A stretch of DNA of 62,282 nt, counting the filler, from Collodictyon triciliatum (taxonomy: Eukaryota): assembly GCA_043381765.1 (NCBI GenBank). It is 17 parts of 17 records of this genome, joined end to end, with 100 filler letters (N's around TTAATTAATTAA, not from the genome) between each part and the next. Parts side by side here need not be neighbours in the genome. Positions count along the whole stretch, not along the records: positions 3,744 to 7,380 come from JBHJMP010007050.1; 16 more parts are not named here. One strand, written 5' to 3'. Under the pieces are notes generated by a model. That model did not search any database, was not told the origin of the DNA, and saw nothing but the letters and a program-made list of their open reading frames with translations. Shown one piece after another: positions 3,700 through 60,750 of the stretch (position 1 is the first letter of the stretch; every line of letters begins with the position of its first letter). Both the position numbers and the translations under genes were made by a program.

Positions 3700-3963
3700 N
3701 NNNNNNNNNNNNNNNNNNNNNNNNNNNNNNNNNNNNNNNNNNNTTGTTTGTTTGTTTGTTTGTTTGTTTGTTTGTTTGTTTGTTTGTTTGTTTGTTTGTT
3801 TGTTTGTTTGTTTGTTTGTTTGTTTGTTTGTTTGTTTTTTTCTCTTCGGTCTCATTCAGCCTGTAAGTGAAAAACTTCATTACAAAGGTTGTGGCGAACT
3901 TGGTTTTATCGCTTTCAAGGACAATACTTTTTATACAACGAAAGTATCCCCATGCATAGCAGT

Positions 3964-4422
3964 TTATTGCGCAGACAACCATCGAATTAAATCTGGATTG
4001 ACAAAAGCAGGAGCTTTGATGAATCCAAGAAACAACCTGAATAAAATAATAGTATGATTACTATATAATAAGGTTAAAAAGTCCTTAAAATCTCATTCTG
4101 TTCCTGTAATCAATTTATATTCTATTTACCGTTTCTGTAATATTAATTCAAATATTACAAACAAGCCCTTGCATTGACCCAGACAGAACACACCCTATAA
4201 AACTGCCACCAAACATGTATTTCAAAAAAAGCATACTATTCACACTTGCGGCGGTAATCATTTTGTTTGAAGCCGATATGTTGACTTTCAGCCGCAATGG
4301 CTATACGGCCGTCCTTTCGAACTCGCCGAATTGGCTCTCAGCGTTTTGTCTCAAATTACTTGTAAAAAAACTTGGTGTGTTTGTTTGCCACAATGCGCAT
4401 ATTATGAAAGCCTCGGTAGATG
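3964..4422 (-). pseudogene. Degenerate 3-exon C-terminal fragment resembling alkaline ceramidase (CREST superfamily), copy A
   Basis: Putative exons 4422-4327 (AFIICALWQTNT..NLRQNAESQF), 4235-4159 (FFEIHVWWQ..) and 4036-3964 (LFLGFIKAPAFVNPDLIRWLSAQ*). They resemble the ceramidase pattern LWxxDxxFC...E-x-H-[AG]-W-W-H. Recognised by eye only. Confidence 0.45.
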
Positions 4423-4494
4423 CTTAATTTTACATGAAATGATTTTGTACAGTTGTTTGTATTTTTAAATTGACTGATTGACTAAAGTTTTATT

Positions 4495-4502
4495 AAAATT
4501 GA
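4495..4502 (+). promoter_or_regulatory. AAAATTGA motif (Mimivirus-type early promoter octamer) 54 nt upstream of the Fanzor ATG
   Basis: Exact octamer, at the same -54 position in copy B (33985-33992). It also occurs by chance elsewhere in this AT-rich DNA. Confidence 0.4.
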
Positions 4503-4548
4503 AAACTCGGTAGTTTTCTAAAGGAAAAAGTAAAACAAAGACTTTCAC

Positions 4549-6549
4549 ATGAAGAAAAGAAACCGTCTTGAGTCTGAAAATCTAAAGTCTGTAAAACCAG
4601 ACTATTGAAATGTGAAAACATCTCTGAAGTCGATTGTAAAGAATGCGGATGACTGTGACAAAATCAACGATACGGTTTTATTGTGTCATAATTTGGTTAC
4701 CGACACAATTATCTGTTTGCAAGATGTTACATATTGAAGTCATAACAACTCCCAACAATCGATAAAATGAAAGTTTTTTTTGTACGCTTTAAAGATAGTC
4801 GGAATAGTTTCACAAGATAGACCCGCAAGTTTAAAAAAACCAGAAATGGGGGATGACAAGATGACTTTTTATCTCTACGTTTTTCGATTCCATTTGTCCC
4901 GAGAAGAACGTTTTCCGTTGGTTGGATTGTCTCATGTATTACCGTACTTGGCGAAGCAAATGTTAACAGCTTATCATAATCACCTTCACCATCCTGCACA
5001 AAATTGAAAGGAAGAATAAAAAAAAAAACAGCTTATCATAATAACATTAAGGAACGTTTTGTAAAGAGGTTACTGCACTTTATAAATCGAACACTTCCTA
5101 AAGACAAGAATGTTATGGAAGCTATTAAAAAGGCAGAGTTACGAAAGTTTAAAAAGAAGCCATCTTCAATAATCTCGAAATACCGGAAATATACAAAGAA
5201 TGGGCTACAACGCGTTTGAATCATATCATTCCCAGAGATATTGTAAATGGTATCGAATGTGATGTCAAAGTCAATCCAAATAAGTACATTCAGTGTCTGA
5301 CTTACATGAATCGCATTTTGGGGGACATTGGAACCAAACTGCTTCAACCAATCTCTATAAGAACTAACAATATACCATGTCATGTTACTCTAGATACTGC
5401 ATGTTTGATAGAGCTATTCGTATTGTCTGAAAAAACGTTACTGAAGAATATATCAGGATGCAAAGAGACACTATTGAATGATTATTTTGTAATGAAGAAG
5501 AGGGTCTTTAATCAAAGATATTAGAATTTTAAATACATGATACAAACAGACGAGTTGGCGGTATCATTATTATTTGAAAACAATAAAGCTATTTCAAATT
5601 CAAAATCTCAATATAATAATAAAAAAAACCCAAGAATATGTTTATATGGATGAACTTTCCGAAGAGCAGTTATCTTTATTAGCGACAAAATAAATAGTTG
5701 GGGTAGACACAGGCAAGCTTATTTGGGTTAGATGGTGAGTGAGACAGGTAAGAAATTACGTTACACGGCGCGCCAAAGAAGATATGATAGCAAATCTCTT
5801 AAAAATCACAAAATACTCTTGCGCGAGAAAAAAGTACATTGCTTCAGGGATATGCATGACAACAGATTTACAAAGTGCTTTTTCCTTTTGGTCCCCTGAC
5901 TTTTGAAGAGAATCAGCGGTTTGAGACATCAAGAGTATTTTTAATCGATTTAGAGACAGAACTGAGTAAACATAATTTATGCACGGTCGATTATGAAAAA
6001 TTTCGAAAATATATATCTATGAAATCAAGATACCAGATAGAATTTTGCAGATTTTATGAACACGTAACTTTTCGAAAGATGAGATGGAGACATTATGTTA
6101 ATGCAAAAAGAAGTGAACAGTTGTTCATGGACGGAATCGAAAAGACATTTGGCAAGGATGTTGTTGGCGTATGGAGACTGGAGAAGAAAATCTCCGATGA
6201 AGCATTTTATGCCAACAATCAGAAGTGCATTACGAAAAATACTATCCAAACGGTTTGAAACAATCAGTGTAGATGAATTTATAACCTCCAAGATGTGCTG
6301 CAACTGCGAAAAATACTGGATTATATGAAACTGAAAGGAAATTCAAAAAATGTGTATAGATGTCTCATATGTAAAGAATGCAATCGCCCAGACAGCAAAC
6401 ATAGTGTATTCTTGACAAGGGACTTTAACAGCGCTAATGATAGACTCAAGAAAGTGCTTTTAATCCTAAAAATATGCGTACACCTTTCTTTAAAAAAACA
6501 GGCTGTCGGGTCAGTCCTGGCAGCCTTCAACACTACACAATCTTTGTGA
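4549..6549 (+). pseudogene. Fanzor (Fanzor1-like, TnpB-derived RNA-guided endonuclease), frameshifted with in-frame stops, copy A
   Basis: N-terminus VKTSLKSIV..KINDTVLLCH; LDTACLIELF; FKYMIQTD..VSLLF; RuvC-I IVGVDTGK (GAC 5706); FRKMRWRHY..KRSE; LAYGDW..KHFMPT; RuvC-II VDEFITSKMCCNC (GAA 6275); second Zn knuckle CKEC; RuvC-III TRDFNSA (GAC 6421). Spans about 2 kb. Confidence 0.9.
4981..5026 (+). mobile_element. 46-nt LINE-derived insertion with A-tail and 16-bp TSD inside Fanzor copy A
   Basis: TSD AACAGCTTATCATAAT at 4965-4980 and 5027-5042. The insert CACCATCCTGCACAAAATTGAAAGGAAGAATAAAAAA matches 40560-40597 and the reverse complement near 39597-39635. Copy B has the empty site near 34452. 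Confidence 0.9.
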
Positions 6550-6640
6550 AAAAAGTGGTGAGACCTTGGATACTAGGACACCAGGTTTACTATTCGGAAG
6601 ATTGATATACCTCTTCTAGTGAATATTATAATTGATGCAA
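6500..6640 (+). ncRNA. Candidate Fanzor omegaRNA scaffold plus flanking guide, copy A
   Basis: Conserved with 35980-36097 past the ORF end. Nested stem TCA(C)CACT-ACACAA/TTGTG-AGTGGTGA and a second stem AGACC(T)TGG...CCAGGTTT. Conservation stops at about 6621. Confidence 0.55.
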
Positions 6641-15955: not shown

Positions 15956-17237
15956 ATGGAGCCGCGCAGCCGCGACGATCCGGTCATCCCGTGGCGCGTG
16001 CTGCCGACCGTGGCCCCGGGGAATGCGGCGGGCTTTGCGGGCGGGGGCGGGGGTGGGGGTGGGGGTGGACCGCCGCGCGCCTCCTTTGCCTCGCACCTGT
16101 CCCACTGGACGGCCCAGATCCAGGTGGGCCACAGATGCAGCCACAGACGCAGCCACAGACACAGCCACTAACGCCCCGACAATTCAGGACATGCTGCCGC
16201 CCTTCCGCAGGAGGCTGACGGCCGACGTGCACCCGCTGCCACAGATGCAGCCACAGACGCAGCCACAGCGCCTGGGCGAGGCGGGCGCATGGGCGATGGA
16301 CACACGGGGCACAGCAACACAGTCACACTCACAGTCACACTCACAGTCACACTCACAGTCACACTCACAGTCGCAGTCGGTGTCGCGGCACTCGAGCAGC
16401 CACTCGGACCGCACGTCGACGGCGCTCTTTGGCAGCGACTCAGACGGGGCGGTGGACATCAGCAGACACTTCCTGTTCCCGGCCCTGCCCAACGCCGTGG
16501 GCGATGCAGACGCAGACGCAGACGCAGATGCAGATGCAGACGCGGGCTTCATGGACACAGACCCGGCCGACGTGGCGCTGCCGCCCATCGCGCACCCGCA
16601 CGCCTTTGCGCACCCACACCCACACCCACACCCACACCCACACCTGCATCCACACCTGCATCCACACCTGCATCCACACCCACACCCACACGCTGTCCGC
16701 CTCGCCCCGCTGCCCACCAACCCCGCCAACCCCGCCGCCCCGCCGCTGGTCTTCATCCAGGTGGGCCACGAGGACGACGCTGCCCGCCGCGATCCCCGCC
16801 GCTCGTTCCCCTGCCCCCACGCCGGCTGCGGCAAAGTCTTCCACCGGCACGACCATCTCAAGAAGCACATCCTCACACACACCGGCGAGAAGCCCTACGC
16901 CTGCCACCAGTGCCCCAAGCGCTTTGCGCGCCTCGACAAGCTCAAGGACCACCAGCAGGTATCCCGCCCCGCCTTTCTCCACTTCCTTTCTCCCTCCCTC
17001 CCTCTCTCCCTCTCTCCCTCTCTCTCTCTCTCACGCACACACGCTCTCGCAACAGACACACATCGGCGTGCCCATCTACACCTGTCAGATCTGCGCCGCA
17101 TCCTTCCCAAAGAAGCGCTTCCTGTAAGTGCCTGCACACACAACCCCCTCTCCCTGCAGCCATTGCTTCCCATCCCCCGACTCAATCCCTCCCTTGCCAG
17201 CAAAAATCACATGGAGGCCATGCACGACACTCGCTGA
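15956..17237 (+). CDS. C2H2 zinc-finger transcription factor (3 fingers) with low-complexity SQSH, DA and HP tracts
   Basis: FPCPHAGCGKVFHRHDHLKKHILTHTGEKPYACHQCPKRFARLDKLKDHQQ|THIGVPIYTCQICAASFPKKRFL|..HMEAMH. Probable introns at 16124-16187, about 16959-17055 and about 17124-17200. Confidence 0.9.
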
Positions 17238-17992
17238 CCACCGCTCTCCATCGCCGCCCACTTGGCTCCCTCCGTGTCCTGCATTCGCCCCCCGCAGCCT
17301 TGTCTGGGCATCGGCCATGGAAACAACCCAAATGTACTTGTGTCCTCGCCCTCCCCTTCGTTCTCCAGTTAGCTTCATACCCACACCTGGTTCCCTTCTG
17401 TCCCACAAGGACTTTGTCCGCCCCCACACCCAACCTCTGCATTACATGTCATAAATATATCTGTAAGTCATCGCTTCACCTCTGCACAAACGCTCGGCCA
17501 CGTGTCTCCGGGCATGAGAGCGACATTAGGAGGGGCTGCTTTATGGGATGTTGGTTGGGGACTGTAGATTCGGGGTTGCCTCTAAGTTCAAACAGGCTGG
17601 AGACTCAGGCATATTACCATCCCCTTGGCGTTGCTCGGCTGCTTTGGGGATACGCACCGAGCGCTGGCAGCAAATCTGGTTTACGGTTGAAATGTTGCAG
17701 AATAGGACACGACAGGATAGCTCGGTTACTCGTGCGAAAGTCAGCCAGTCTTTTTTTTTTTTTTTTTTTTTTTTTGAAAAAAGAAAAAAAAAAAAAAAAC
17801 CCCATAAAAAAACCCAGAAAANNNNNNNNNNNNNNNNNNNNNNNNNNNNNNNNNNNNNNNNNNNNTTAATTAATTAANNNNNNNNNNNNNNNNNNNNNNN
17901 NNNNNNNNNNNNNNNNNNNNNTTTTTTTTTAAATATTATTCTATTTTTCAAAAAAAAAAAAAAAAGACTCATTTTATTGAGTGTACATACAA

Positions 17993-20633
17993 GCCACAAC
18001 CTTGCGGTTAGATTTCCTTACGAATCCCTAAGAGAAGAAGCAAAGCATATGTAAATTTGGATAATGCGCTCAGAATAAGCTGTGAACAAAGGATACAATA
18101 CTCTTGCATACCCAAGGAACATAAAATCCAAAGTTAATTAATGAATCATGATTTGGTTGGTACCTGAAGAATTAATCTTTCTATGTATATAATAGATAAG
18201 GAGATTGTATCAAGACCAAGGAGCTGATAAAAACAAAACTAGTTAGCTCTCATGATTAACCATTTTGCAATTTAAAATAAAAATCGGTGGCTGGATTTCA
18301 TATGTATCCGACATATCGCTTACTTTATTCTCGCATATCTCAACCATATTTTGAAATATCTTTTTCAGCATGCTGAATGTGAAATCGGGGCTAATCTGTG
18401 GATAGCGCGAAGAAAATCTCTGATTTAAATCTTGTTTTTGTGTTCTAGGGTTTACGTACGGGATGACGGAAACCTATGTTTTGTTTTGAGAAAAGAAAAT
18501 AAGTAGAAGCGAACACACATAAAAAAAATTCTTATGGACGAATACAGTGTTTTTACAACCGTTAGTTGATATCTATTTGTATTAACAAAAAAAAAAAAAG
18601 TATTCAGGGACTACTTAGATAAGAAAAATTGAAAAAAAATCGATGAAAGTCAAACACGCACCAAGTAGCTTGGTAGAGTCATTTGTTTTCTATTCATTTC
18701 AGTATGAAAATCCGACAGGTCAAGAATAGATGGGTCATAAGGCTCTGGATTACTGAATGAAATCTTGCATTAATAAAGTATGTATAATGGTATATTTAAC
18801 ATAGTCTCTTTCAAAACATGTAACTTTTGGATGTCATCTAATGATTATTTGCTACCTCTCCATGACGTTTGAGGGTAAGGGTGCCTAAATGATTAAAAAT
18901 ATAGTTAATTTATGTACTAGCAGTTGAAAAATTCAATAGATGAGCTTATACATAATCTCATTTATAAATACAGATGAGGAAAGTATGTATTTTGGCCAAC
19001 CAATAAATATTTGAAATAAAATCATACTGCCCAAGGAAGCTGCTCTCTGAAATACAATGTCGATGTGAAAGGATTATAAGAATGGTGCTTAAGAAGGAAT
19101 ACATATTTTACAAGAATTTATTCAATATTTTAAAGAAAAATCAGTATATTCAATTACTCATTTTCTGTGTTGTTTTGAGCCTTCGTTTTGGATTTTTGGT
19201 CATGACATATGATTGACGATATAACTATGGGATGCTTTTTCTATTGTGGGTGATACAAATATTGAATTCAGATATGTGAAAAGTTCATATACATTTAAAG
19301 CATGAGGAAGCTATCTACTTGCATAAAATTAATCATAAGACCTTGTAAACAAAAATGATTCTTTCATAGTCCATTCTATTCCTGGGTAGAAATTAATCAA
19401 TACAAACATGAAATCGAAGGGCGGAGAAAACAATTGATAGGAAATATAAAAAAAATGTCATTAAAAATTACCCAGTTTCTTTTGGTTGTTGGTAATTTAT
19501 AATCTTCTGTTTGCGATCTGGTACTTTTATGAGTATTTGACATTAGGTATATTTTAGGTATAAAGCGTATTATTTCATTCACGGTTATTTAAATGAAAGC
19601 TCTTACCAATAAACCTTTGTGATAAATTTCTCTAGAATAAAAATTGATAAAAAGTGAAACAAAAGAACATAAAGTAAATTTTTGCATTAGTGGCCACATT
19701 AGTTGTAATAATAAATTATTGAATTTTGTGCCTTATATATGAGTTACACCTTAAACATATATCGAAAGTATATTATTTATCTTGAAGACCAGTTTAAAAG
19801 AATACTCGTGGTAAAGTACATTGAAAACTACCTGGGACCTCTTTGTGTACGGAGTTGAATTGGAGGAAAGCGCATTCTCACCAAGAAGAGACTTTTGGCT
19901 GGACCGCGGCACAAGCTAAACCAAAATTTATGAAACAAACTCCACACATCAAAGAATATAAACCGCTATATGGAAACATGATACTCAAAAATCATGTCAT
20001 TGCATCTATATGACCTACATTGTTTGATGATGAATTTTCTGATCCCCTGTAATCATACACAAAAATTTACATTCTTTCAAGGCACATTCAAGGTAATCAC
20101 ACAATATGACTAATAAAAGATTAAAGTAAAAAGAGTCTAACGAAATAAAATATCATAAAACAAAACCTTGCATCTCCTTGCGAGAGATGGGCCGAAAGCA
20201 AACTCTGCGAGCTCTGAAAAGCCGCCCCGGCTTCCCCGAGAAGAAGGCCGCTTCCTGCGGGTGTGCTCTGCGCGATTGCGGCGATGCCTTCAAAGGACGT
20301 AGCCGAAGACAAAGAAGCATACGCATACGAATATGCGTAATGTGCACTTATGATGTCCTGCACAGCAGATTGCGATGGCCCGGACGTGGGCGTGGTTGAG
20401 GCGTGCAGCGGACTTGCGGCTCCGGCTGACGAGCGGCGTTCATGCCAGGCAAGAGTTTCTTGAGCGTCGGGTTCAGAGGCCGATTCAGCATTCATGTCGT
20501 CCTGCGCGGCTTCGGCCTCGTCGGCTGCATACGGGCTCGAAGGGAAGTCCAGTCCGGCTTCGGCTAGAGTCAGCGGAATCCACGACAGAAACTCAACCGC
20601 AGCTGCGATGTCCAACTCGCTTCCTGTGCTCAT
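17993..20633 (-). CDS. CABLES-like cyclin-box protein, multi-exon, 3' truncated by the contig end
   Basis: First exon MSTGSELDIAAAVEFLSWIPL. Later exons EPYDPSILD, VSVIPYVNPRTQKQDLNQRFSSRYPQISPDFTFSMLKKIFQNM, LDTISLSIIYIERLILQ and GFVRKSNRKVVA parallel the CABLES motifs YDPxxLD, LNExF..LTLSK, VYFEKL and KxNRKL. Confidence 0.75.
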
Positions 20634-21658: not shown

Positions 21659-22260
21659 ACAGCATATGTCCCCTTGTGACTGTCCAGAGTATTCTAAAGT
21701 CGTGGGTCATTTGGTATTGTGTGCCAAACAGGATGTCAGATGCGCTGAGTCGGTTGGGAGCACAATCAAGCTCAGAGAGCATCTTGTGGGTAGAATCTGT
21801 CACTTTTTGAGCAAGGGAGCACTTCACAACTGTGTGTTCGATAGAGTCATCTCCACTATGGCACATGGTGCATTCTGGAGAGGTCGTTGCTGCATGGACT
21901 ACACGCGCACCTGTCCACAGCTCTCTGTTGGACATATTGAGAAGTAGGGCGCGGTGTTTCGGGAGTAGCTGAGGTATACGGGCTTGCTTCCAGCTTTTGA
22001 CTGTCAGCGGGTCTATAATGCCTATAGTTTCGGCCCAACGACTCATTTTCTCCGGTTTGTAGGGATTCGGGCTGATGATTTTATATCGAAACAGCTTGGA
22101 ATACGCCATGGCCATCGAGAATTGCAGAGAATCAGGCGTAATGGACCGCCTTTGGTTCTTCAGGCGAAAGAAAAATGGCGACGGCGCTCCGTATGAGATG
22201 GGACGACGTGAGCGCCATTCTCCTTTGTTGTTCAGGACGGCTGTGGTTGGGGTTGCATAG
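21659..22260 (-). mobile_element. Non-LTR retrotransposon ORF2 fragment with zf-RVT-like CCHC finger (L1/Tx1-type)
   Basis: RELWTGARV...ECTMCHSGDDSIEHTVVKCSLAQKV shows the CxxC-x7-H-x4-C pattern that follows the RT domain. Intronless. Confidence 0.7.
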
Positions 22261-23604
22261 TCGGCAGCGCTTAAAATCTGGATGGTGAATCAGATTATGA
22301 GGATCATGTAGTTGGGGTGATCCAATCGCGCGTCGACGATCAAGAAAAAAAATGGCACAAAAAAAAGAAAAAAGAAAAAAGAAAGAGATAAGATAATATT
22401 AAAATTTTTTAAAAAAAACTACTTGGAATGAAACGGCGACGCAAAAAGAGCCGTCCTTAGAGTCTCTACCTAAACGCCTTCGTGCACGCGATAACAACCT
22501 GATCCTACCCAAAAAACCCCAGATCGTAAAAGAATGCCCACTTGGCAAGCATTCTTGGTGTGGCTCTACGCCCACCAAGGAAAAAACTTTGTGACTGTGA
22601 TGGCCGCTGCAGACCTNNNNNNNNNNNNNNNNNNNNNNNNNNNNNNNNNNNNNNNNNNNNNNNNNNNNNNNNNNNNNNNNNNNNNNNNNNNNNNNNNNNN
22701 NNNNNNNNNNNNNNNNNNNNNNNNNNNNNNNNNNNNNNNNNNNNNNNNNNNNNNNNNNNNNNNNNNNNNNNNNNNNNNNNNNNNNNNNNNNNNNNNNNNN
22801 NNNNNNNNNNNNNNNNNNNNNNNNNNNNNNNNNNNNNNNNNNNNNNNNNNNNNNNNNNNNNNNNNNNNNNNNNNNNNNNNNNNNNNNNNNNNNNNNNNNN
22901 NNNNNNNNNNNNNNNNNNNNNNNNNNNNNNNNNNNNNNNNNNNNNNNNNNNNNNNNNNNNNNNNNNNNNNNNNNNNNNNNNNNNNNNNNNNNNNNNNNNN
23001 NNNNNNNNNNNNNNNNNNNNNNNNNNNNNNNNNNNNNNNNNNNNNNNNNNNNNNNNNNNNNNNNNNNNNNNNNNNNNNNNNNNNNNNNNNNNNNNNNNNN
23101 NNNNNNNNNNNNNNNNNNNNNNNNNNNNNNNNNNNNNNNNNNNNNNNNNNNNNNNNNNNNNNNNNNNNNNNNNNNNNNNNNNNNNNNNNNNNNNNNNNNN
23201 NNNNNNNNNNNNNNNNNNNNNNNNNNNNNNNNNNNNNNNNNNNNNNNNNNNNNNNNNNNNNNNNNNNNNNNNNNNNNNNNNNNNNNNNNNNNNNNNNNNN
23301 NNNNNNNNNNNNNNNNNNNNNNNNNNNNNNNNNNNNNNNNNNNNNNNNNNNNNNNNNNNNNNNNNNNNNNNNNNNNNNNNNNNNNNNNNNNNNNNNNNNN
23401 NNNNNNNNNNNNNNNNNNNNNNNNNNNNNNNNNNNNNNNNNNNNNNNNNNNNNNNNNNNNNNNNNNNNNNNNNNNNNNNNNNNNNNNNNNNNNNNNNNNN
23501 NNNNNNNNNNNNNNNNNNNNNNNNNNNNNNNNNNNNNNNNNNNNNNNNNNNNNNNNNNNNNNNNNNNNNNNNNNNNNNNNNNNNNNNNNNNNNNNNNNNN
23601 NNNN

Positions 23605-38706: not shown

Positions 38707-39875
38707 ATTTTTCCTTTATTCTATTCAAAGTTTAGCGAGGTTATGCCATAAAAAGAGCGAGATAGGTGCGCATGGTAGAGAGCAAACGCGAGTAGGAGAA
38801 GACACTGCTGTGGAGAGGCTAGCACTGGAAAGAAATCAGTGATAGTGAGTTGGTCAGGTGGGCGTCCCAACTGGTTGATTGGTTGCGTGGGCAGCAGTGG
38901 TTGGATATGCTGTGGGAGATATCGCACGACACATTCCCACATCTCTCTTCGCTTGCGGTCAGAGTAGCGAAGAATGCGAGCATGTTTCAGCAGGCTGTTC
39001 AGGAAGCTGTATTGCACGAGGCTTTACCACGAAGAACTATGGTAATCCCTTACGTTTTCTCTTGGTGAGGTGATGTCACCAAAAAACCTTGGACATCAGA
39101 TACACTTTAGGGTAAACTTTGAAAGTTCATCTTGGTTCAAAAAATCGTTACTGAGATGCACTCTGGGTATACCATTCAGAATAACCGAATATGGATAGAA
39201 ATAAGCAAATGAGATGATCTACAAATACATAATCGTCAGTGAAACATGAAGTCCAGAAAATAAATCCAAGGACGAAGAACTTCCACAACTCCCATGATAT
39301 TATTTCTGGCGTACTTGTGAGAATAAACGAGAAGAACCCAAATCCATGGCCACCCAAGAAAACGTAAAGAAAAGTAAATTCGCCATTTAGCAGGATAATA
39401 TGTCCTCTTCGGTCTTCATTCTTCGGGTAATTATCTGTTATGTTGAAAATCTATTTCCAAATAAAGAAAAAGGTCGGTGGCCATTTTACCCGAGCAGAAT
39501 ACGCTAATGGATAATTGAGGCTGAGTCACCAACTCAAAGCCACCGAGCAAGGGTGGTGCGGTAAATAATCGAAAGTCTTTCACGACCCACGCGCGTTTTT
39601 TTATTCCTCCTTTCAATTTGTGCAAGATAGTGGGGATGTTGGCTTTGGTTCGCTAGCCATCGTTTGCATGGATTCTACTTGTCGGCCGGGTGGCGGAGAA
39701 GTAGTCGGCAATCAGGAATTGCATCCTGCAGTTTGGTTTGTAGTCTGGTTCTGGTGCTTGTATGAGAGAGGCAAGGCAAGGTTTAATATCTTTCTCAGCT
39801 TCCTTCCACATGCCTCTTCTTACAAGGTCTGAGTAGTAGAGAATGACGACTTGTACGCGCTGAAGAAAACTATCA
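38707..39875 (-). mobile_element. Degenerate 3' portion of an L1/Tx1-like LINE (post-RT region, zf-RVT remnant, 3' end with AATAAA)
   Basis: Minus-strand frames read KLKGGIKKRAWV..FTAPPLLGGFELV (GGLGL-like motif), PAETCSH...PQAK and LLLAFALYHAHLSR, and end in GAATAAAGGAAAAA. This is the longest copy of the family seen as small insertions. Confidence 0.78.
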
Positions 39876-40296: not shown

Positions 40297-40597
40297 GATG
40301 ACATCATACAAATCTCTTTCCTCAATAGCTTTCTTCGCCACCTGCACGTTCTCTACTACTCCGACCCCGTGAGAAGAGACATGTGGAAAGAGGCTGAGAA
40401 AGATATTAAACCTTGCCTTGTATCTCTCATGCAGGCGCAAGACCCAGGCTACAGGCCAAAGCGCAGGATGCAATTGCTGATTACCGACTACTTCTCCGCC
40501 ACCCGGTCAACAAGTAGCGTCCATGCAAACAAAGGCTAGCGAACCAAAGCCAACATCTCCACCATCCTGCACAAAATTGAAAGGAAGAATAAAAAAA
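40297..40597 (+). mobile_element. Internal fragment of the same LINE family, ending at the internal AATAAAAAA
   Basis: Homologous to the reverse complement of about 39597-39875. Homology stops at GGAAGAATAAAAAAA. Confidence 0.82.
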
Positions 40598-47847: not shown

Positions 47848-49615
47848 ATGGGTAACAAAAAGTCCAAGAAGTCTGAGCTGTCACAACATTCTCCCGAAGC
47901 AAGTGGAACAGCAGGATATGATATGAGTGAAGAAGTGGGAAGAAGGATCGAAGAGGATGATGTGCTGGACCAGCGAGTAGAAAATCCAAAGCACGCAGAC
48001 TTTGAAGCAAGAATCGACAAGGTGTGTCACGGCTTTCCTACCTCGAATACTGAATTCGCGATGATATGAACAAGGAACGACACGTTCACGATTTTATATC
48101 CTAGTTATTTTTATGCTAATTAGGCGATTTTTAGTGCGTTTTACTTATATATTTTTGCGCTTTGTATGCATTCTCAATTTGTATCTGTGTTCATCTAGAG
48201 AAGTTGAAATGTATTTAAACTTGGCTCGTATCATTGTGAAATGTTAGCTTTCGTTGCTTTAAAATCATATGCATATTTTATGTCGATAATTATAATCATA
48301 AAATTTACATTCGATATCCTCCAGATAAACGAGAAGTTTGAACGCTTTGATGAGTTTATTGTAGCCAAATTTGCGACAAGCACAAAGATTATTGATGAAG
48401 CAGAAGAAAAACACGTCAAACAAGTATAAATGTTCATCGCATAATACAACCTTTACCTCAAAACAAAGCCAATTAATATATCATCTGAATACATATTATA
48501 AGGTAAGCACAACATCAATTAGCCAAAAGAAGAGATTCCTGTCATCGGAATCACAAACATCATTGATGATACAACGACTAAAACAAGTGTTCATCGTTAA
48601 TATAAAAGAGGGCTCATCAAAGCCATTTTCAGTGGCTCGAAAGGCTCTTGGTTTGGTGGGTATCTTGTCTTTACATCCCCCAGCCATCTCTCCAGTTTAC
48701 AATATTCGGCTACGATTGACCAATACTCTCACGGCCTTTAAGAAAGAAGACTTTGATCAAATAAACAGCCAACATTTTCATCGTATAAATCGAGATGTCA
48801 GTTCCATCAAAACACACGTGAATGAGTTTGGCTCTAGTGGAAACGCCCAAGGCTTTTTTCGAGAACCTTTTGGCATTGCTATTCACCCACATACAGGAAA
48901 TTACTTTATTATGAACAAAGACAATCAGCGTGTGGACGAATTCACTCCCGATTTTACATTTGTTCGTTCTTATGGGAATCAAAGTGCGGAGACGATATTG
49001 AGTTATGCTCGAGGCTTAGCTTTCAATCCCAGTGGGACAGTCTTGGCTGTTGCAGATACCCTGAATCACCGTATTCAGTTTTGGGACATGTCAGGTGAAC
49101 TGCTTTCCAAGATTGATAGATTCGGCTCATCGCTCCGCCTTCAATCCGCCCAATTTGTTGCTTACGATGCAGATGAAAATCTGTATGTAGCGGATAAAAG
49201 TGGTAGAGTTATTTACAAGTTCAACAAGGAACATGAATACCTCATGTCTATTGGAGGTCCTGATTCCGAAAAGCCAATCGGTGAAGTGGGTGGCATGATG
49301 ATCAATGATTATGGTGAGCTGATGGCAATCGCGGTCTCATCAAACGAGGTCAAGTTTTACTCGAATGACGGCCAGTTCATCAGAAGCGTCCTCATTCTGC
49401 CAACAGGGACGGTGGAGAATGCTTATTCGAATCACCTAGCCCGAGGACCTGACTGCTTCATCGTTTCCGATACGTCTGGTTTTGTTCGGTTCTATAAATA
49501 TGATGGAACCCTGCTCAATTCTCTGGAAATGAAAGTACCTGTGGGGACAGCTTTCGACCTCAACAGCCGTTTAGTCGTAGTTGACTACAGAGGGTGTCAC
49601 ATCAAGACTTTCTAG
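47848..49615 (+). CDS. NHL-repeat beta-propeller protein with N-terminal MG (possible myristoylation), spliced
   Basis: Exon 1 starts MGNKKSKKS. The C-terminus has NHL repeats FGSSGNAQGFFREPFGIAIHP, ARGLAFNPSGTVLAVADTLNHRIQFW and LYVADKSG. Confidence 0.85.
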
Positions 49616-49811: not shown

Positions 49812-49883
49812 TGAGCCCTACGTGAATCGAACACGCAACCTTATGATCTGGAGTCACACGCTCTACCATTGAGCTAAGGGCCC
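49812..49883 (-). tRNA. trnW: tRNA-Trp(CCA)
   Basis: GGGCCCT TA GCTC AATGGTA GAGC G TGTGA CTCCAGA TCATA AGGTT GCGTG TTCGATT CACGT AGGGCTC A forms a full cloverleaf. A T-run Pol III terminator follows (A-run at 49797-49804 on +). Confidence 0.96.
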
Positions 49884-58835: not shown

Positions 58836-60750
58836 TCACGCCCGGTCGGCCTTGTTGAAGACGACAGCGGCAAGCAGGCTAGTGACCAGGGCTGCATTTG
58901 CAACCAGGACAAGGACGCCAGGCCCAAAGACATCATCGTACGGGCCTTCGGAGCGGGCGCGGATTCTGTGTGCGCGCTGGCCAAAGATAAAGTAGGCGTA
59001 GATGCTAAAGACCACTCCGGCACAGAGAAGGATGAGGCCGGCCAGCTGCATGCCAAAGTCGTCGGCGAAGTTGATGAGGCCCAAGGCAAGCATGTTGATG
59101 TTGAGCGACATGTTGACCCAGGTCAGGAAGGTGCGCTCGTTGGCGAAGAAGGTCTTTGGCTCGATGCGCAGAGGGATTTTGGACAGGCGTGAGCGGAGCG
59201 GGCGGTATATGTTGAGGAAGGATGATGTGGAGCAGGAGCAGCAGCCCTCATCGTCGTTGCCAATCACAACCTCGGGCTCTTCAAAGTCGCCGTCCTCCAT
59301 CCCGTCTTCGCTTCCGTCGTGATGGTGATGATGGTGGTGATGCGAGTCAGGTCCGTCACTTTCTTCGCCGCTGGCTTCCAGGCGGCTCCAGTCGTCCTCG
59401 CTGCTTTCGTGCTCTCCTTCAAACCTCACGCGGGTGTATTCCGCACCTCGCTGGCCTTTCTTTCCAGACGGCTGGGTGCTTGGCGGAAGAAGACGGGTCT
59501 GCTCCACGAATTCGCCTGGGTAGTGCGGTTTCTGAAGAAGAATATACAAATATTGGGAAAAAGAAAAAGAAAAGAAAAGAAAAAATAAAGGAATTAAAAC
59601 GTAAATATTATCATGTAAAGATGACTTATAATAATAAAGTGTGCCATAGAAAGATAATGATAGAGCAGTTTTGCTACTCACAGCCAAGTATATTACCTGG
59701 GATGTGCCCTGTGATGAACGTTTTTGACCCTTGGACTGACCTCCAGGCACGCTCTGGGGTGCATTTGCTTTTGCTTTCTTGCTTAAAAGTTCATCCATGG
59801 CATCCAGCCAGTGAGGCAGCGCGGGCACTTGGTCAGGAATCAGCATGACGCATCCGTGGATAAACTTGGAGAACTTGTGTGCCTCGATAAGCATCCCAGA
59901 GTTTATCAGATCCGTGACCCATCGCGGTGGCTCTTCTCTAATTTTTTTTAAATAAAAGGAAAAGGAAAAGGAAAAGGAAAAGGAAAAATGAAAAATGAAA
60001 AAAAAAATGGAAAATGAGGGACACATCCACAGAAAAAAAAACATATTTCTATAGAAAGACACATTCAATTGATGGTCATAGTTTTGTAGCTCTTTTTGTG
60101 TCATACGTTGGGTTCTTTTCTTTTCTTCCTTTCTTCTTTTTTCCAAGTACATTATAATTAAGCAGATTATCTCTACAAACCCTAGCTCAAGTTGGAGCTT
60201 AACTTCCAGAACTGCAAAAGGAAAACGTGTGATATCACTTTCTGGGATTTCCTTGCGTGGATCTCTTCTCCACTCATCTTGCTTGCATTTTTCGAGAATC
60301 ATGGTCAAGTTTGTGTCAATGGAAATCCGCACTATGGCTGTGTCAGGAAGCTGGAAGGCCGTTCTCATGTAAACCGTTCGAACTGTTGGCACGAGCTGCT
60401 TGGATTCAACCACTTGCTGAATCTCACGAGAGAGCGTCAACATCTCCTGGATTTCTTCCTCTTTGGCTCCTTTTCTACGCATGTCTTCAGCTTTCCCATC
60501 CAACTTAAAATCTCCCTTCAAGTAATTCACAACGTCCTTCTCCTTCATTGAAAAACGCGTCTTCACACTGATTTCACCAGCCCAAGAGTCGTGGTGAGTC
60601 TTTCTTTCCATAAAAACATCCGTCGGGTCTCCGTCGCCGTACCATCGGATACGAAAAGCTATGGCGCCCTAGGTTCCAATAATCTTGTTAGGTGCCTTTT
60701 ATTCCCAAGGAGAAATGGGTATCCAAATAAATAGAGCAAAATGATTTTGT

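What the first reader, a model, noticed from the sequence alone, without database searches (positions are those of the whole stretch)
3845..6621. Two-copy family of a eukaryotic RNA-guided nuclease (Fanzor) in this protist
Seen: this contig and 33075-36097 carry colinear, independently decayed copies of a ~2 kb ORF. Both keep RuvC-I D (IVGVD.GK), a glutamate just before the Zn finger (VDEFxTSKMCCNC...CKEC) and RuvC-III RDxNSA. Established: this layout marks Fanzors (TnpB-derived OMEGA nucleases), and the N-terminus KTSLKSI..IND.V..TY.F.R resembles Fanzor1. Inference: many lesions differ between the copies, so a near-intact consensus can be rebuilt. Two copies in 62 kb of unrelated contigs suggest a sizeable family that may include intact members. 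No transposase was recognised.
Basis: partly seen in the sequence, partly recalled or inferred. Interest (0 to 1): 0.9.

Follow-up and report, generated by a model that had tools for sequence, protein, structure and literature searches.

The report
Two dead Fanzor1 nuclease gene copies

Summary
Contig A (3845-6625) and contig B (33075-36103) carry colinear copies, 83-88% identical, of a ~2.8 kb unit. No third copy is in the window.

Both copies match, end to end, an intact 648-aa metagenomic protein, P0001. P0001 and a 42-protein profile of its family hit the solved Fanzor1 structures: SpuFz1 E 6.7e-105, PpFz1 2.5e-100, GtFz1 3.8e-74. The AF2 model of P0001 superposes on SpuFz1 with TM 0.75/0.79, against 0.21 for Fanzor2. 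The codons for the Mg-binding D/E/D triad and the zinc finger survive in both copies.

Both copies are pseudogenes:
- Copy A has 10 frameshifts, 4 premature stops and a 47-bp retroposon tail.
- Copy B has about 12 frameshifts, 5 stops and a 30-bp tail.
- They have lost 3 and 4 of 13 family-invariant residues, and dN/dS between them is 0.78.

Two or three frameshifts are shared, so a two-copy consensus cannot restore the ORF. No intron, transposase or inverted terminal repeat was found, and there is no supported omegaRNA fold. Public runs hold many diverged relatives, so the family is large.

This is a new member of a known kind and of low interest.

The parts
3845..6625 (+). Copy A of the repeated unit: about 700 bp of upstream non-coding DNA, the Fanzor1 pseudogene, and about 65-75 bp of 3' tail.
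   Evidence: blastn and MAFFT against copy B. The left edge follows a (TTTG)n tract that runs to the contig start.
33075..36103 (+). Copy B of the repeated unit.
   Evidence: The left edge follows a (CTTTTTT)n-like tract.
4549..6549 (+). Copy A Fanzor1 pseudo-ORF, from the ATG to the homologous TGA stop. It has 10 frameshifts and premature stops at 4606, 4768, 5522 and 5691.
   Evidence: Frameshift-aware alignment to P0001: 385 of 640 matched codons are identical. tblastn gives 5 pieces in 3 frames covering aa 1-643. The 42-protein HMM gives 9 colinear pieces of 20.6-106.2 bits.
34039..36029 (+). Copy B Fanzor1 pseudo-ORF. It has about 12 frameshifts (the last two are uncertain) and stops at 34990, 35062, 35650, 35653 and 35785.
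   Evidence: 392 of 642 matched codons are identical; 8 pieces covering aa 1-620; 8 colinear HMM pieces of 33.3-81.5 bits.
5706..5708 (+). Copy A RuvC-I Asp codon, in GVDTGK. The family's DPG motif has decayed to DTG.
   Evidence: Searches place it on SpuFz1 D383.
6275..6277 (+). Copy A RuvC-II 'alternative' Glu codon, in VDEF just before the TS-x-x zinc finger.
   Evidence: Searches place it on SpuFz1 E541.
6296..6381 (+). Copy A zinc-finger Cys codons (CCNC ... CLICKEC), split by a private frameshift at 6314.
6418..6429 (+). Copy A RuvC-III motif RDFN. The Asp codon is 6421-6423.
   Evidence: Searches place it on SpuFz1 D606.
35163..35165 (+). Copy B RuvC-I Asp codon, in GVDAGK.
35749..35751 (+). 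Copy B RuvC-II alternative Glu codon, in VDEL.
35894..35905 (+). Copy B RuvC-III motif RDFN. The Asp codon is 35897-35899.
4981..5027 (+). A 47-bp poly(A)-ended retroposon tail inserted in copy A. Its 15-bp TSD lies at 4966-4980 and 5028-5042.
   Evidence: The same tail occurs at 40554-40597 and 39632-39596. The form without the insert is present in all 4 runs laid (joint 4964>5027).
35074..35103 (+). A 30-bp retroposon tail (..GAATCGAATAAAGG(A)n) inserted in copy B. Its 14-bp TSD lies at 35060-35073 and 35104-35117.
33354..33592 (-). A 239-bp minus-oriented insert of the same retroposon family, in the upstream part of copy B. Its 12-bp TSD lies at 33342-33353 and 33593-33604.
   Evidence: (pair I3).
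6550..6625 (+). [quoted passage not shown]
   Evidence: [quoted passage not shown] The folds are not significant.
36030..36103 (+). Candidate omegaRNA scaffold of copy B, proposed from its position alone.
   Evidence: As for copy A. Fold z-scores are -0.71 and -0.11.

Best explanation
The two loci are decayed, non-functional copies (pseudogenes) of an intronless Fanzor1 gene of about 648 codons, carried in a repeated unit of about 2.8 kb in a low-GC eukaryotic genome.

Inferred, from what is established for the solved Fanzor1 proteins: the intact ancestor was an omegaRNA-guided RuvC endonuclease. [quoted passage not shown]

Shown: neither copy can now make that protein.

The two copies descend from an ancestor that was already frameshifted, yet they sit in different flanks. 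Inferred from this: the unit kept spreading without its own nuclease, by a transposition machinery supplied in trans. After that it drifted almost neutrally and was hit by LINE-type retroposon tails.
For: Homology:
- The N-terminal ORF of copy B finds P0001, 648 aa, at 65% identity and E 4e-29.
- P0001 against the PDB: GtFz1 2.1e-28, PpFz1 2.7e-24, SpuFz1 3.7e-23.
- The 42-protein profile against the PDB: SpuFz1 6.7e-105 over profile positions 7-602 of 611.
- The AF2 model of P0001 has pLDDT 85.3. Foldseek ranks 1-7 are all Fanzor1 chains, with TM up to 0.75/0.79.
- The same profile hits copy A in 9 colinear pieces and copy B in 8. Nothing else in 2684 six-frame pieces of the window scores above 5.7 bits.

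Active site: P0001 D364/E555/D604 align to SpuFz1 D383/E541/D606, which are Mg ligands according to PMC10432273 (passage). These codons are kept in both copies.

Decay:
- Frameshifts and stops are listed.
- Invariant residues lost: 3 of 13 in A and 4 of 13 in B.
- dN/dS is 0.78 over 537 codon pairs.
- The inserts carry TSDs.

Not an assembly artefact: other contigs of the window hold uninterrupted ORFs of 565, 591, 492 and 414 aa.

Shared lesions: both copies change frame at aa 174-179 and aa 368-371 with no A/B alignment gap nearby. Other family members carry an extra A behind 5720 that removes the second of these (3 contigs in X6, 1 in X4).

Same genome: the retroposon tail motif found in B occurs 8 times in the window, against 0.04 expected by chance.
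Against: - Direct evidence from the window's own letters is weaker than evidence obtained through P0001. The 53-aa RuvC-II fragment of A alone gives only E 0.066 to PpFz1 and 0.64 to mimivirus Fanzor2, and Pfam Cas12f1-like_TNB is below its cut-off at 14.6 bits against 26.3.
- Some frameshifts lie in homopolymers and could be sequencing errors. The 'shared' shift at aa 402-404 is in a poly-A tract and may have arisen twice.
- No omegaRNA structure is supported. Fold z-scores run from -1.96 to -0.11 and the two copies fold differently.
- No transposon ends were identified.
- Spread in trans is inferred from two copies only.
Confidence: 0.93

Rival explanations
1. The unit is a non-autonomous Helitron2-like element that carries Fanzor1, as CRe-1/2/3 do in Chlamydomonas, and inserts next to T-rich tracts.
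For: - There are no terminal inverted repeats spanning the unit.
- The 5' edge of both copies directly follows a T-rich microsatellite: (TTTG)n in A and (CTTTTTT)n in B. Bao & Jurka report that Helitron-borne Fanzor1 elements insert after TTTT, TTTG or TTTC (PMC3627910, passages).
- The 5' GGTCTCA(T) at 3848/33078 is inverted to (A)TGAGACC at 6559/36038, just upstream of a small conserved hairpin. This is the layout of asymmetric terminal inverted repeats.
- The 3' end reads CTAG in A and TTAG in B, followed by T.
Against: - The 7-8-nt inverted match is at chance level: 91 of 500 shuffles give as many 7-mer matches.
- The 3' repeat lies about 55 nt from the end, not the 20-30 nt described.
- The hairpins are not statistically supported.
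- No RepHel gene was seen.
- Contig A starts inside the microsatellite, so the true 5' end is unknown. The A-rich tail on the minus strand would equally fit a retroposed unit.
Confidence: 0.2
2. The genes are really intact and active. The breaks would then be assembly errors, introns or recoding.
For: Several frameshifts sit in short homopolymers, and the catalytic codons are all present.
Against: - There are 4 and 5 substitution-type stops.
- Retroposon tails with TSDs lie inside the ORF.
- Invariant residues have been lost.
- dN/dS is 0.78.
- Long clean ORFs occur elsewhere in the window.
- There is no extra DNA where an intron would be.
Confidence: 0.03
3. The copies are Fanzor2 or TnpB genes, or come from a contaminating virus or bacterium rather than from the eukaryote.
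For: Mimivirus Fanzor2 is the second PDB hit of the short A fragment, at E 0.64. Fanzors are common in giant viruses (PMC10530073, section 6).
Against: - Fanzor1 structures outrank Fanzor2 by more than 20 orders of magnitude in Foldseek E-value and by TM (0.75 against 0.21).
- No relative was found in viral contigs with P0001.
- The copies are interrupted by the same retroposon families that occur on other contigs of the window.
- Their GC content of about 34% matches the neighbouring contigs.
Confidence: 0.02
4. The two contigs are alleles or haplotigs of a single locus.
For: They are colinear over 2.8 kb.
Against: - They are about 12% diverged.
- The microsatellites at the left edge differ, and the right flanks share no homology.
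- Each copy has its own private retroposon insertions.
Confidence: 0.01

Closest known systems
Fanzor1 of Spizellomyces punctatus (SpuFz1; PDB 8gkh, 9ceu-9cez)
   Same: - The family profile aligns over nearly its full length at E 6.7e-105.
- The P0001 model superposes at TM 0.75/0.79.
- The D/E/D Mg ligands and the zinc finger align.
[quoted passage not shown]
- The family is multi-copy and includes partial members.
   Different: - Identity is only about 20%.
- The Spu-1 elements have 30-nt inverted repeats, and none was found here.
- The unit here has an extra ~700 bp of conserved upstream DNA.
- Both copies here are dead.
Fanzor1 of Guillardia theta (GtFz1; PDB 9cer)
   Same: It is the best single-sequence PDB hit of P0001, at E 2.1e-28. 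GtFz1 loci are reported to lack IRs and any clear transposase association (PMC10432273, Discussion passage), as is the case here.
   Different: It is a distant relative: the profile E-value is 3.8e-74, weaker than for SpuFz1 and PpFz1. The GtFz1 omegaRNA overlaps the last 17 codons; this could not be tested here.
CRe-1/2/3, Helitron2-borne Fanzor1 elements of Chlamydomonas (Bao & Jurka 2013)
   Same: They are non-autonomous units that encode only Fanzor1 and insert next to T-rich tetranucleotides. They have no long TIRs but short asymmetric repeats plus hairpins (PMC3627910, passages).
   Different: The CRe genes have 5-10 exons, whereas this gene has no intron. The Helitron features here are at chance level.
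Fanzor2 / IS607 TnpB (e.g. mimivirus L79; PDB 9b0l)
   Same: They share the RuvC core, the alternative glutamate and the zinc ribbon.
   Different: The fold match is poor (rank 21, TM 0.21/0.28). The Fanzor1-type large REC region is present in P0001. No TnpA gene was seen.

Membership tests
Fanzor1 | Significant full-length sequence similarity to experimentally characterised Fanzor1 proteins. | tested here: met
   Through the intact relative P0001 and a 42-protein profile: SpuFz1 6.7e-105, PpFz1 2.5e-100, GtFz1 3.8e-74. The same profile hits both copies colinearly in 9 and 8 pieces, up to 106 bits. Directly from the window the evidence is weak: E 0.066 for a 53-aa piece.
Fanzor/TnpB | The motif D-X(125,275)-[TS][TS]-x-x-C4 zinc finger-X(5,50)-RD (Bao & Jurka 2013, abstract). 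| tested here: met
   All elements are present as codons in both copies: D 5706/35163, TS 6284-6289/35758-35763, the CCNC...CLICKEC cysteines, and RD 6418-6423/35894-35899. They no longer lie in one reading frame.
Fanzor (both types) and 'pro-Fanzor' TnpBs | An alternative RuvC-II glutamate (Ealt) next to the zinc finger (PMC10530073 and PMC10711439, passages). | tested here: met
   E555 is invariant in 42 of 42 family proteins and aligns to SpuFz1 E541. It is kept in A (6275-6277) and B (35749-35751).
Fanzor (both types) and 'pro-Fanzor' TnpBs | A DPG motif at RuvC-I (PMC10711439, passage). | tested here: not met
   P0001 and all 42 family proteins have DP (D364 and P365 are invariant). Copy A reads DTG and copy B reads DAG. 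Because the intact relatives meet the feature, this is read as decay of a member and not as non-membership.
Fanzor1 | A TDG motif in the WED domain (PMC10711439, passage). | tested here: not met
   P0001 has T312-D313-G314, where T is invariant and D and G are at least 90% conserved. Copy A reads TDE and copy B reads TDS. This too is read as decay.
Fanzor1 | The Fanzor1 fold with enlarged REC domains (REC2 helices), distinct from Fanzor2 and TnpB. | tested here: met
   Tested on the model of P0001, not on the broken copies. Foldseek ranks 1-7 are all Fanzor1 chains, with TM 0.63-0.75 normalised by the query. Fanzor2 gives 0.21 and ISDra2 TnpB 0.20.
Fanzor1 | An intact ORF able to make the nuclease. 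| tested here: not met
   Copy A has 10 frameshifts and 4 premature stops. Copy B has about 12 frameshifts and 5 stops. Both have inserts.
Fanzor1 | A cognate omegaRNA at the 3' end whose guide reaches into the flank. | tested here: inconclusive
   About 65-75 conserved nt lie in the right position. The folds are not better than shuffles, and the two copies differ. No RNA holder was listed among the runs.
Fanzor1 | RNA-guided, TAM-dependent DNA cleavage. | not testable with these tools
   This needs biochemistry on an intact family member.
Fanzor1 | Residence in a eukaryotic transposon (Mariner, hAT, Helitron, Sola, IS4, MuDr, Crypton). | tested here: inconclusive
   The unit is repeated with different flanks. 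No TIR was found, no transposase domain was found on either contig, and the Helitron2-like features are at chance level.
Fanzor2 | A TnpB-like compact architecture and an IS607 TnpA partner. | tested here: not met
   The Foldseek TM to 9b0l is 0.21/0.28 at rank 21. There is no TnpA-like ORF on the contigs.

The most novel reading that the evidence does not exclude
The organism still holds intact, active members of this Fanzor1 lineage of about 648 aa. In public protein sets the lineage is seen only as unnamed metagenomic proteins. [quoted passage not shown]
Probability: 0.2. Interest if true: 0.4.

Novelty: new member of a known kind. Interest (0 to 1): 0.2.

Why it matters
The find adds one more eukaryotic lineage to the very wide host range of Fanzor1.

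It gives a small, clear example of a Fanzor1-bearing unit that went on multiplying after its nuclease gene was already broken. That fits the view that Fanzor is an accessory of the element and not its transposase.

It has no direct value as an editing tool, because both copies are dead. Any practical value would come from intact relatives such as P0001, or from intact members elsewhere in this genome.

Tried and rejected
- **Earlier findings of this scan:** nothing was found by place or by sequence.
- **Pfam on single ORF pieces:** only a sub-threshold Cas12f1-like_TNB hit, plus chance hits.
- **PF26935:** this label is attached to P0001 and P0002 in the precomputed table, but it is not in the local Pfam copy, so its name is unknown.
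- **Second word-based protein search,** with A 5159-5521: no hit among 77 candidates. The tool itself calls this weak evidence.
- **Related loci:** the one JGI metagenome locus found is only 21% identical, so L001 was not used further. Viral contigs gave none with P0001. The 42-protein alignment was too diverse for that tool.
- **Cluster look-up:** the closest relatives carry no informative names.
- **Sequencing runs:** no RNA holder was listed, and only small word shares of 0.10 or less were found, so no statement on expression or habitat is made. X6 is only guessed to be RNA.
- **Contig depths and piece counts** are not copy numbers.
- **omegaRNA:** the alifold of the two 3' ends has 2 pairs with double changes among 35. 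Single folds give z -1.96 and -0.76 at 186 nt, and -1.25, -0.71, -0.71 and -0.11 at 77-94 nt. No claim is made.
- **Terminal inverted repeats:** none joins the two ends. The short 7-8-mer is at chance level.
- **Upstream 64-codon ORF** (3851-4054 / 33097-33291): it has no Pfam hit, and the two copies differ there by compensating 1- and 2-nt indels, so it is treated as non-coding.
- **CpG decay:** 57 of 333 differences lie at a CpG in one copy, but CpG o/e is 0.94 and 0.83 against 0.87 for the window, so there is no special depletion.
- **Consensus:** no consensus protein was built. Two copies cannot give one, because of the shared lesions.
- **Supplementary files** of the Fanzor papers, which list loci and hosts, were closed. 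Whether this lineage or host is already listed there could not be checked.
Full report
**What the window is.** The 62,282-base window is a string of about 17 contigs of roughly 3.6 kb each, separated by N44-TTAATTAATTAA-N44 spacers. The finding lies on contig A (3744-7380) and its partner on contig B (32839-36467). No whole genome is held for the window. Family size therefore could not be counted on an assembly.

**Observation.**
- blastn of A against B gives four colinear blocks of 83.3-87.6% identity, from A 3755-6615 to B 32995-36093.
- A global MAFFT alignment shows homology starting at A 3845 / B 33075. In both copies this is directly after a T-rich microsatellite: (TTTG)n in A and a (CTTTTTT)n-like tract in B.
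- Homology fades at about A 6612-6625 / B 36091-36103. After that the flanks are unrelated.
- Identity is 605/701 upstream of the ATG, 1692/1917 in the coding part and 50/61 downstream.
- No other copy is in the window.

**Identity.**
- The 116-aa N-terminal ORF of copy B (34039-34386) finds two database proteins. One is an uninterrupted 648-aa protein, P0001, at 65% identity and E 4e-29.
- tblastn of P0001 on the window covers aa 1-643 in copy A (4549-6540) and aa 1-620 in copy B (34039-35947). The hits are colinear but hop between frames.
- P0001 hits three solved structures and no other nuclease: Guillardia theta Fanzor1 (2.1e-28), Parasitella parasitica Fanzor1 (2.7e-24) and Spizellomyces punctatus Fanzor1 (3.7e-23).
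- A full HMMER scan of 1.84 billion representative proteins finds 3147 relatives at E ≤ 1e-3 and 537 at E ≤ 1e-30.
- I aligned 42 roughly full-length proteins chosen from the 150 listed. Their profile hits SpuFz1 at 6.7e-105 over nearly its whole length, PpFz1 at 2.5e-100 and GtFz1 at 3.8e-74.
- The same profile, run on 2684 six-frame pieces of the window, hits copy A in 9 colinear pieces (20.6-106.2 bits) and copy B in 8 (33.3-81.5 bits). Nothing else scores above 5.7 bits.
- An AlphaFold2 model of P0001 built with that alignment has pLDDT 85.3 and pTM 0.83. Foldseek ranks 1-7 are all Fanzor1 chains, led by SpuFz1 at E 2.7e-27 and TM 0.75/0.79. Mimivirus Fanzor2 is rank 21 (TM 0.21/0.28) and ISDra2 TnpB has TM 0.20.
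- The family is therefore Fanzor1, not Fanzor2 or TnpB.

**Active site.**
- In the 42-protein alignment the invariant columns include D364, P365, E555, S559, R603, D604, N606 and N610, in P0001 numbering.
- The profile alignment to chain 8gkh_P places D364, E555 and D604 on chain residues 777, 935 and 1000. Subtracting the 394-residue MBP tag gives SpuFz1 D383, E541 and D606.
- These are the residues reported to coordinate the two Mg ions (PMC10432273, passage seen).
- The glutamate sits just before the TS-x-x zinc finger. This is the 'alternative' RuvC-II glutamate described for Fanzors (PMC10530073, abstract and passages; PMC10711439, passages).
- All three catalytic codons and the zinc-finger cysteines survive in both copies: A at 5706-5708, 6275-6277 and 6421-6423; B at 35163-35165, 35749-35751 and 35897-35899.

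**State of the copies.**
- A frameshift-aware alignment of P0001 to the DNA (my script) gives the following:

| | Copy A | Copy B |
|---|---|---|
| Matched codons identical | 385 of 640 | 392 of 642 |
| Frameshifts | 10 | 12 (the last two, in the C-terminal tail, are uncertain) |
| Premature stops | 4606, 4768, 5522, 5691 | 34990, 35062, 35650, 35653, 35785 |

- Each ORF also carries a poly(A)-ended insert flanked by a target-site duplication. In A it is 4981-5027 with a 15-bp TSD; in B it is 35074-35103 with a 14-bp TSD.
- Of 13 family-invariant residues, A keeps 10 and B keeps 9. Of 25 near-invariant residues, A keeps 20 and B keeps 23.
- The DPG motif reads DTG in A and DAG in B. The Fanzor1 TDG motif reads TDE in A and TDS in B (both motifs from PMC10711439, passages).
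- dN/dS between the copies is 0.78 over 537 in-register codon pairs, which is near-neutral drift.
- Other contigs of the window have clean ORFs of 565, 591, 492 and 414 aa. A general indel error rate in the assembly therefore does not explain about 5 frameshifts per kb. Substitution stops and TSD-flanked inserts cannot be such errors in any case.
- Nothing resembling an intron is present. The copies are colinear with the uninterrupted P0001, and the only extra DNA is the inserts.

**Shared and private lesions.** I mapped the lesions onto the A/B DNA alignment.
- Both copies change frame at aa 174-179 (A 5151 / B 34557) and at aa 368-371 (A 5730 / B 35178, just after GVDxGK), with no alignment gap between them nearby.
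- Both are also shifted at aa 402-404, inside a poly-A tract. That one may have happened twice.
- The last common ancestor of the two copies was therefore already broken, and a consensus of these two copies cannot restore the frame.
- When contigs of four public runs were laid on copy A at 80% likeness or more, 3 contigs of run X6 and 1 of run X4 carry an extra A behind 5720 that removes the second shared frameshift. Other contigs lack A's private 2-nt insertion at 4707, carry the 'AC' missing from A at 6164, or join 4964 to 5027 without the retroposon tail. That last joint is seen in all four runs.

**Family size.**
- All 30 bins of the stretch are covered in all four runs.
- Run X6 gives 534 laid pieces: 77 at ≥99% likeness, 130 at 95-99%, 173 at 90-95% and 154 below 90%. 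The three metagenome runs give 97, 50 and 162 pieces.
- Piece counts and depths of contigs are not copy numbers, as the tool itself notes. Still, up to 20 different contigs at a single site show many diverged variants.
It says nothing firm about intact members.
- The word index found only small shares (0.10 or less) and no holder on record as RNA, so I make no statement on expression or habitat.

**The carrier.**
- Neither contig has a transposase: 6 of 6 flanking or upstream ORFs have no significant Pfam family.
- No inverted repeat joins the two ends of the unit.
- About 700 bp upstream of the ATG are as conserved as the gene itself. The small ORF there is disrupted by compensating indels between the copies, so I treat it as non-coding.
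- A Helitron2-type carrier is a lead, not a result. In its favour:
  - Both 5' edges abut T-rich tracts.
  - A 7-8-nt 5' word (3848/33078) is inverted just before a small conserved 3' hairpin (6559/36038).
  - The 3' end reads CTAG/TTAG followed by T.
  - This recalls the Helitron-borne Fanzor1 elements of Chlamydomonas, which insert after TTTT/TTTG/TTTC and carry short asymmetric repeats (PMC3627910, passages).
- Against it:
  - The inverted word is at chance level (91 of 500 shuffles).
  - Contig A begins inside the microsatellite, so the true 5' end is unknown.
- GtFz1 loci are likewise reported to lack IRs and any transposase association (PMC10432273, Discussion passage).

**Guide RNA.**
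- Here about 65-75 conserved nt lie between the stop codon (A 6547-6549, B 36027-36029) and the end of homology. That makes 6550-6625 and 36030-36103 the natural candidates.
- Folding gives no support. z-scores run from -1.96 to -0.11, the two copies fold differently, and only 2 of 35 alifold pairs show double changes.

**Mechanism.**
- Shown: the loci are homologous to Fanzor1 along the whole protein, keep the catalytic codons, and cannot encode the protein.
- Inferred from the solved relatives: the ancestor was an omegaRNA-guided, TAM-dependent RuvC endonuclease with an N-terminal basic cluster (MKKRKR in P0001) that may act as a nuclear import signal. About 60% of Fanzors have a predicted NLS (PMC10530073, passage).
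- Inferred from the shared lesions together with the different flanks: the unit multiplied at least once after the nuclease gene had broken. It was therefore moved by something supplied in trans, and the nuclease is an accessory and not the transposase.

**Host.**
- Other contigs encode VTC+DUF202, Tmemb_185A and NHL-repeat proteins.
- The retroposon tail found in copy B occurs 8 times in the window against 0.04 expected, on several contigs. The tail found in copy A recurs at 39596-39632 and 40554-40597.
- The Fanzor copies therefore belong to the same eukaryotic genome as the rest of the window.
- From memory, not from any call: VTC is typical of fungi, algae and protists and is absent from animals. 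'Protist' is thus plausible but unproven.

**Novelty and score.**
- Fanzor1 was described in 2013 and shown to be RNA-guided in 2023.
- 3655 sequences are catalogued, with up to 122 copies per genome (PMC10530073, section 6).
- Partial copies are common: 19 of 42 loci are full-length in S. punctatus (PMC10432273, section 7).
- The closest database proteins are unnamed metagenomic predictions.
- I could not see the papers' supplementary lists, so I cannot say whether this host or lineage is already listed.
- The result is a new member of a known kind, present here only as two dead copies. I score interest at 0.2.

Noticed in passing
4981-5027; 35074-35103; 33354-33592 (minus); 32920-32944; also 21296, 30132, 37134, 37335, 38708, 39596-39632, 40554-40597: There are two families of strongly 5'-truncated, poly(A)-ended retroposon tails with 12-16 bp target-site duplications. 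The motif TGAATCGAATAAAGGAAAAA occurs 8 times in the window against 0.04 expected. The second tail (..CCATCCTGCACAAAATTGAAAGGAAGAATAAAAA) occurs 3 times and is very deep in the laid runs. This points to an abundant, probably recently active LINE/SINE system in this genome.
   Followed up: partly
3744-3838 and about 32983-33068: Both copies begin directly after a long T-rich microsatellite with a different unit: (TTTG)n in A and (CTTTTTT)n in B. This could be a target preference of the carrier element, or, read on the minus strand, an A-rich retroposition tail. It is unresolved because contig A starts inside the repeat.
   Followed up: partly
4606-4608 (A) against the homologous codon in B, near 34096: At the codon where P0001 has Arg, copy A has TGA and copy B has CAA. 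Both are what CpG deamination of a CGA codon would give on either strand. However, CpG o/e in the copies (0.94 and 0.83) is not lower than in the window as a whole (0.87).
   Followed up: partly
58836-60611 (-), 26319-27074 (+), 48371-49615 (+), 49812-49883 (-): Other contigs carry a VTC+DUF202 (polyphosphate polymerase-like) gene, a Tmemb_185A gene, an NHL-repeat protein and one tRNA. These are useful markers for placing the host.
   Followed up: no
window 16001-18000 and 22001-24000: GC content differs strongly between contigs: 56.5% at 16-18 kb and 21% at 22-24 kb, the latter next to a 988-N gap at 22617-23604. Either the genome is heterogeneous or the contig set is of mixed origin.
   Followed up: no
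P0001 / P0002 (database proteins): The precomputed table labels both proteins with Pfam PF26935.1. That family is absent from the local Pfam copy, so its name could not be read. It may be a recent Fanzor1 N-terminal or REC family.
   Followed up: partly
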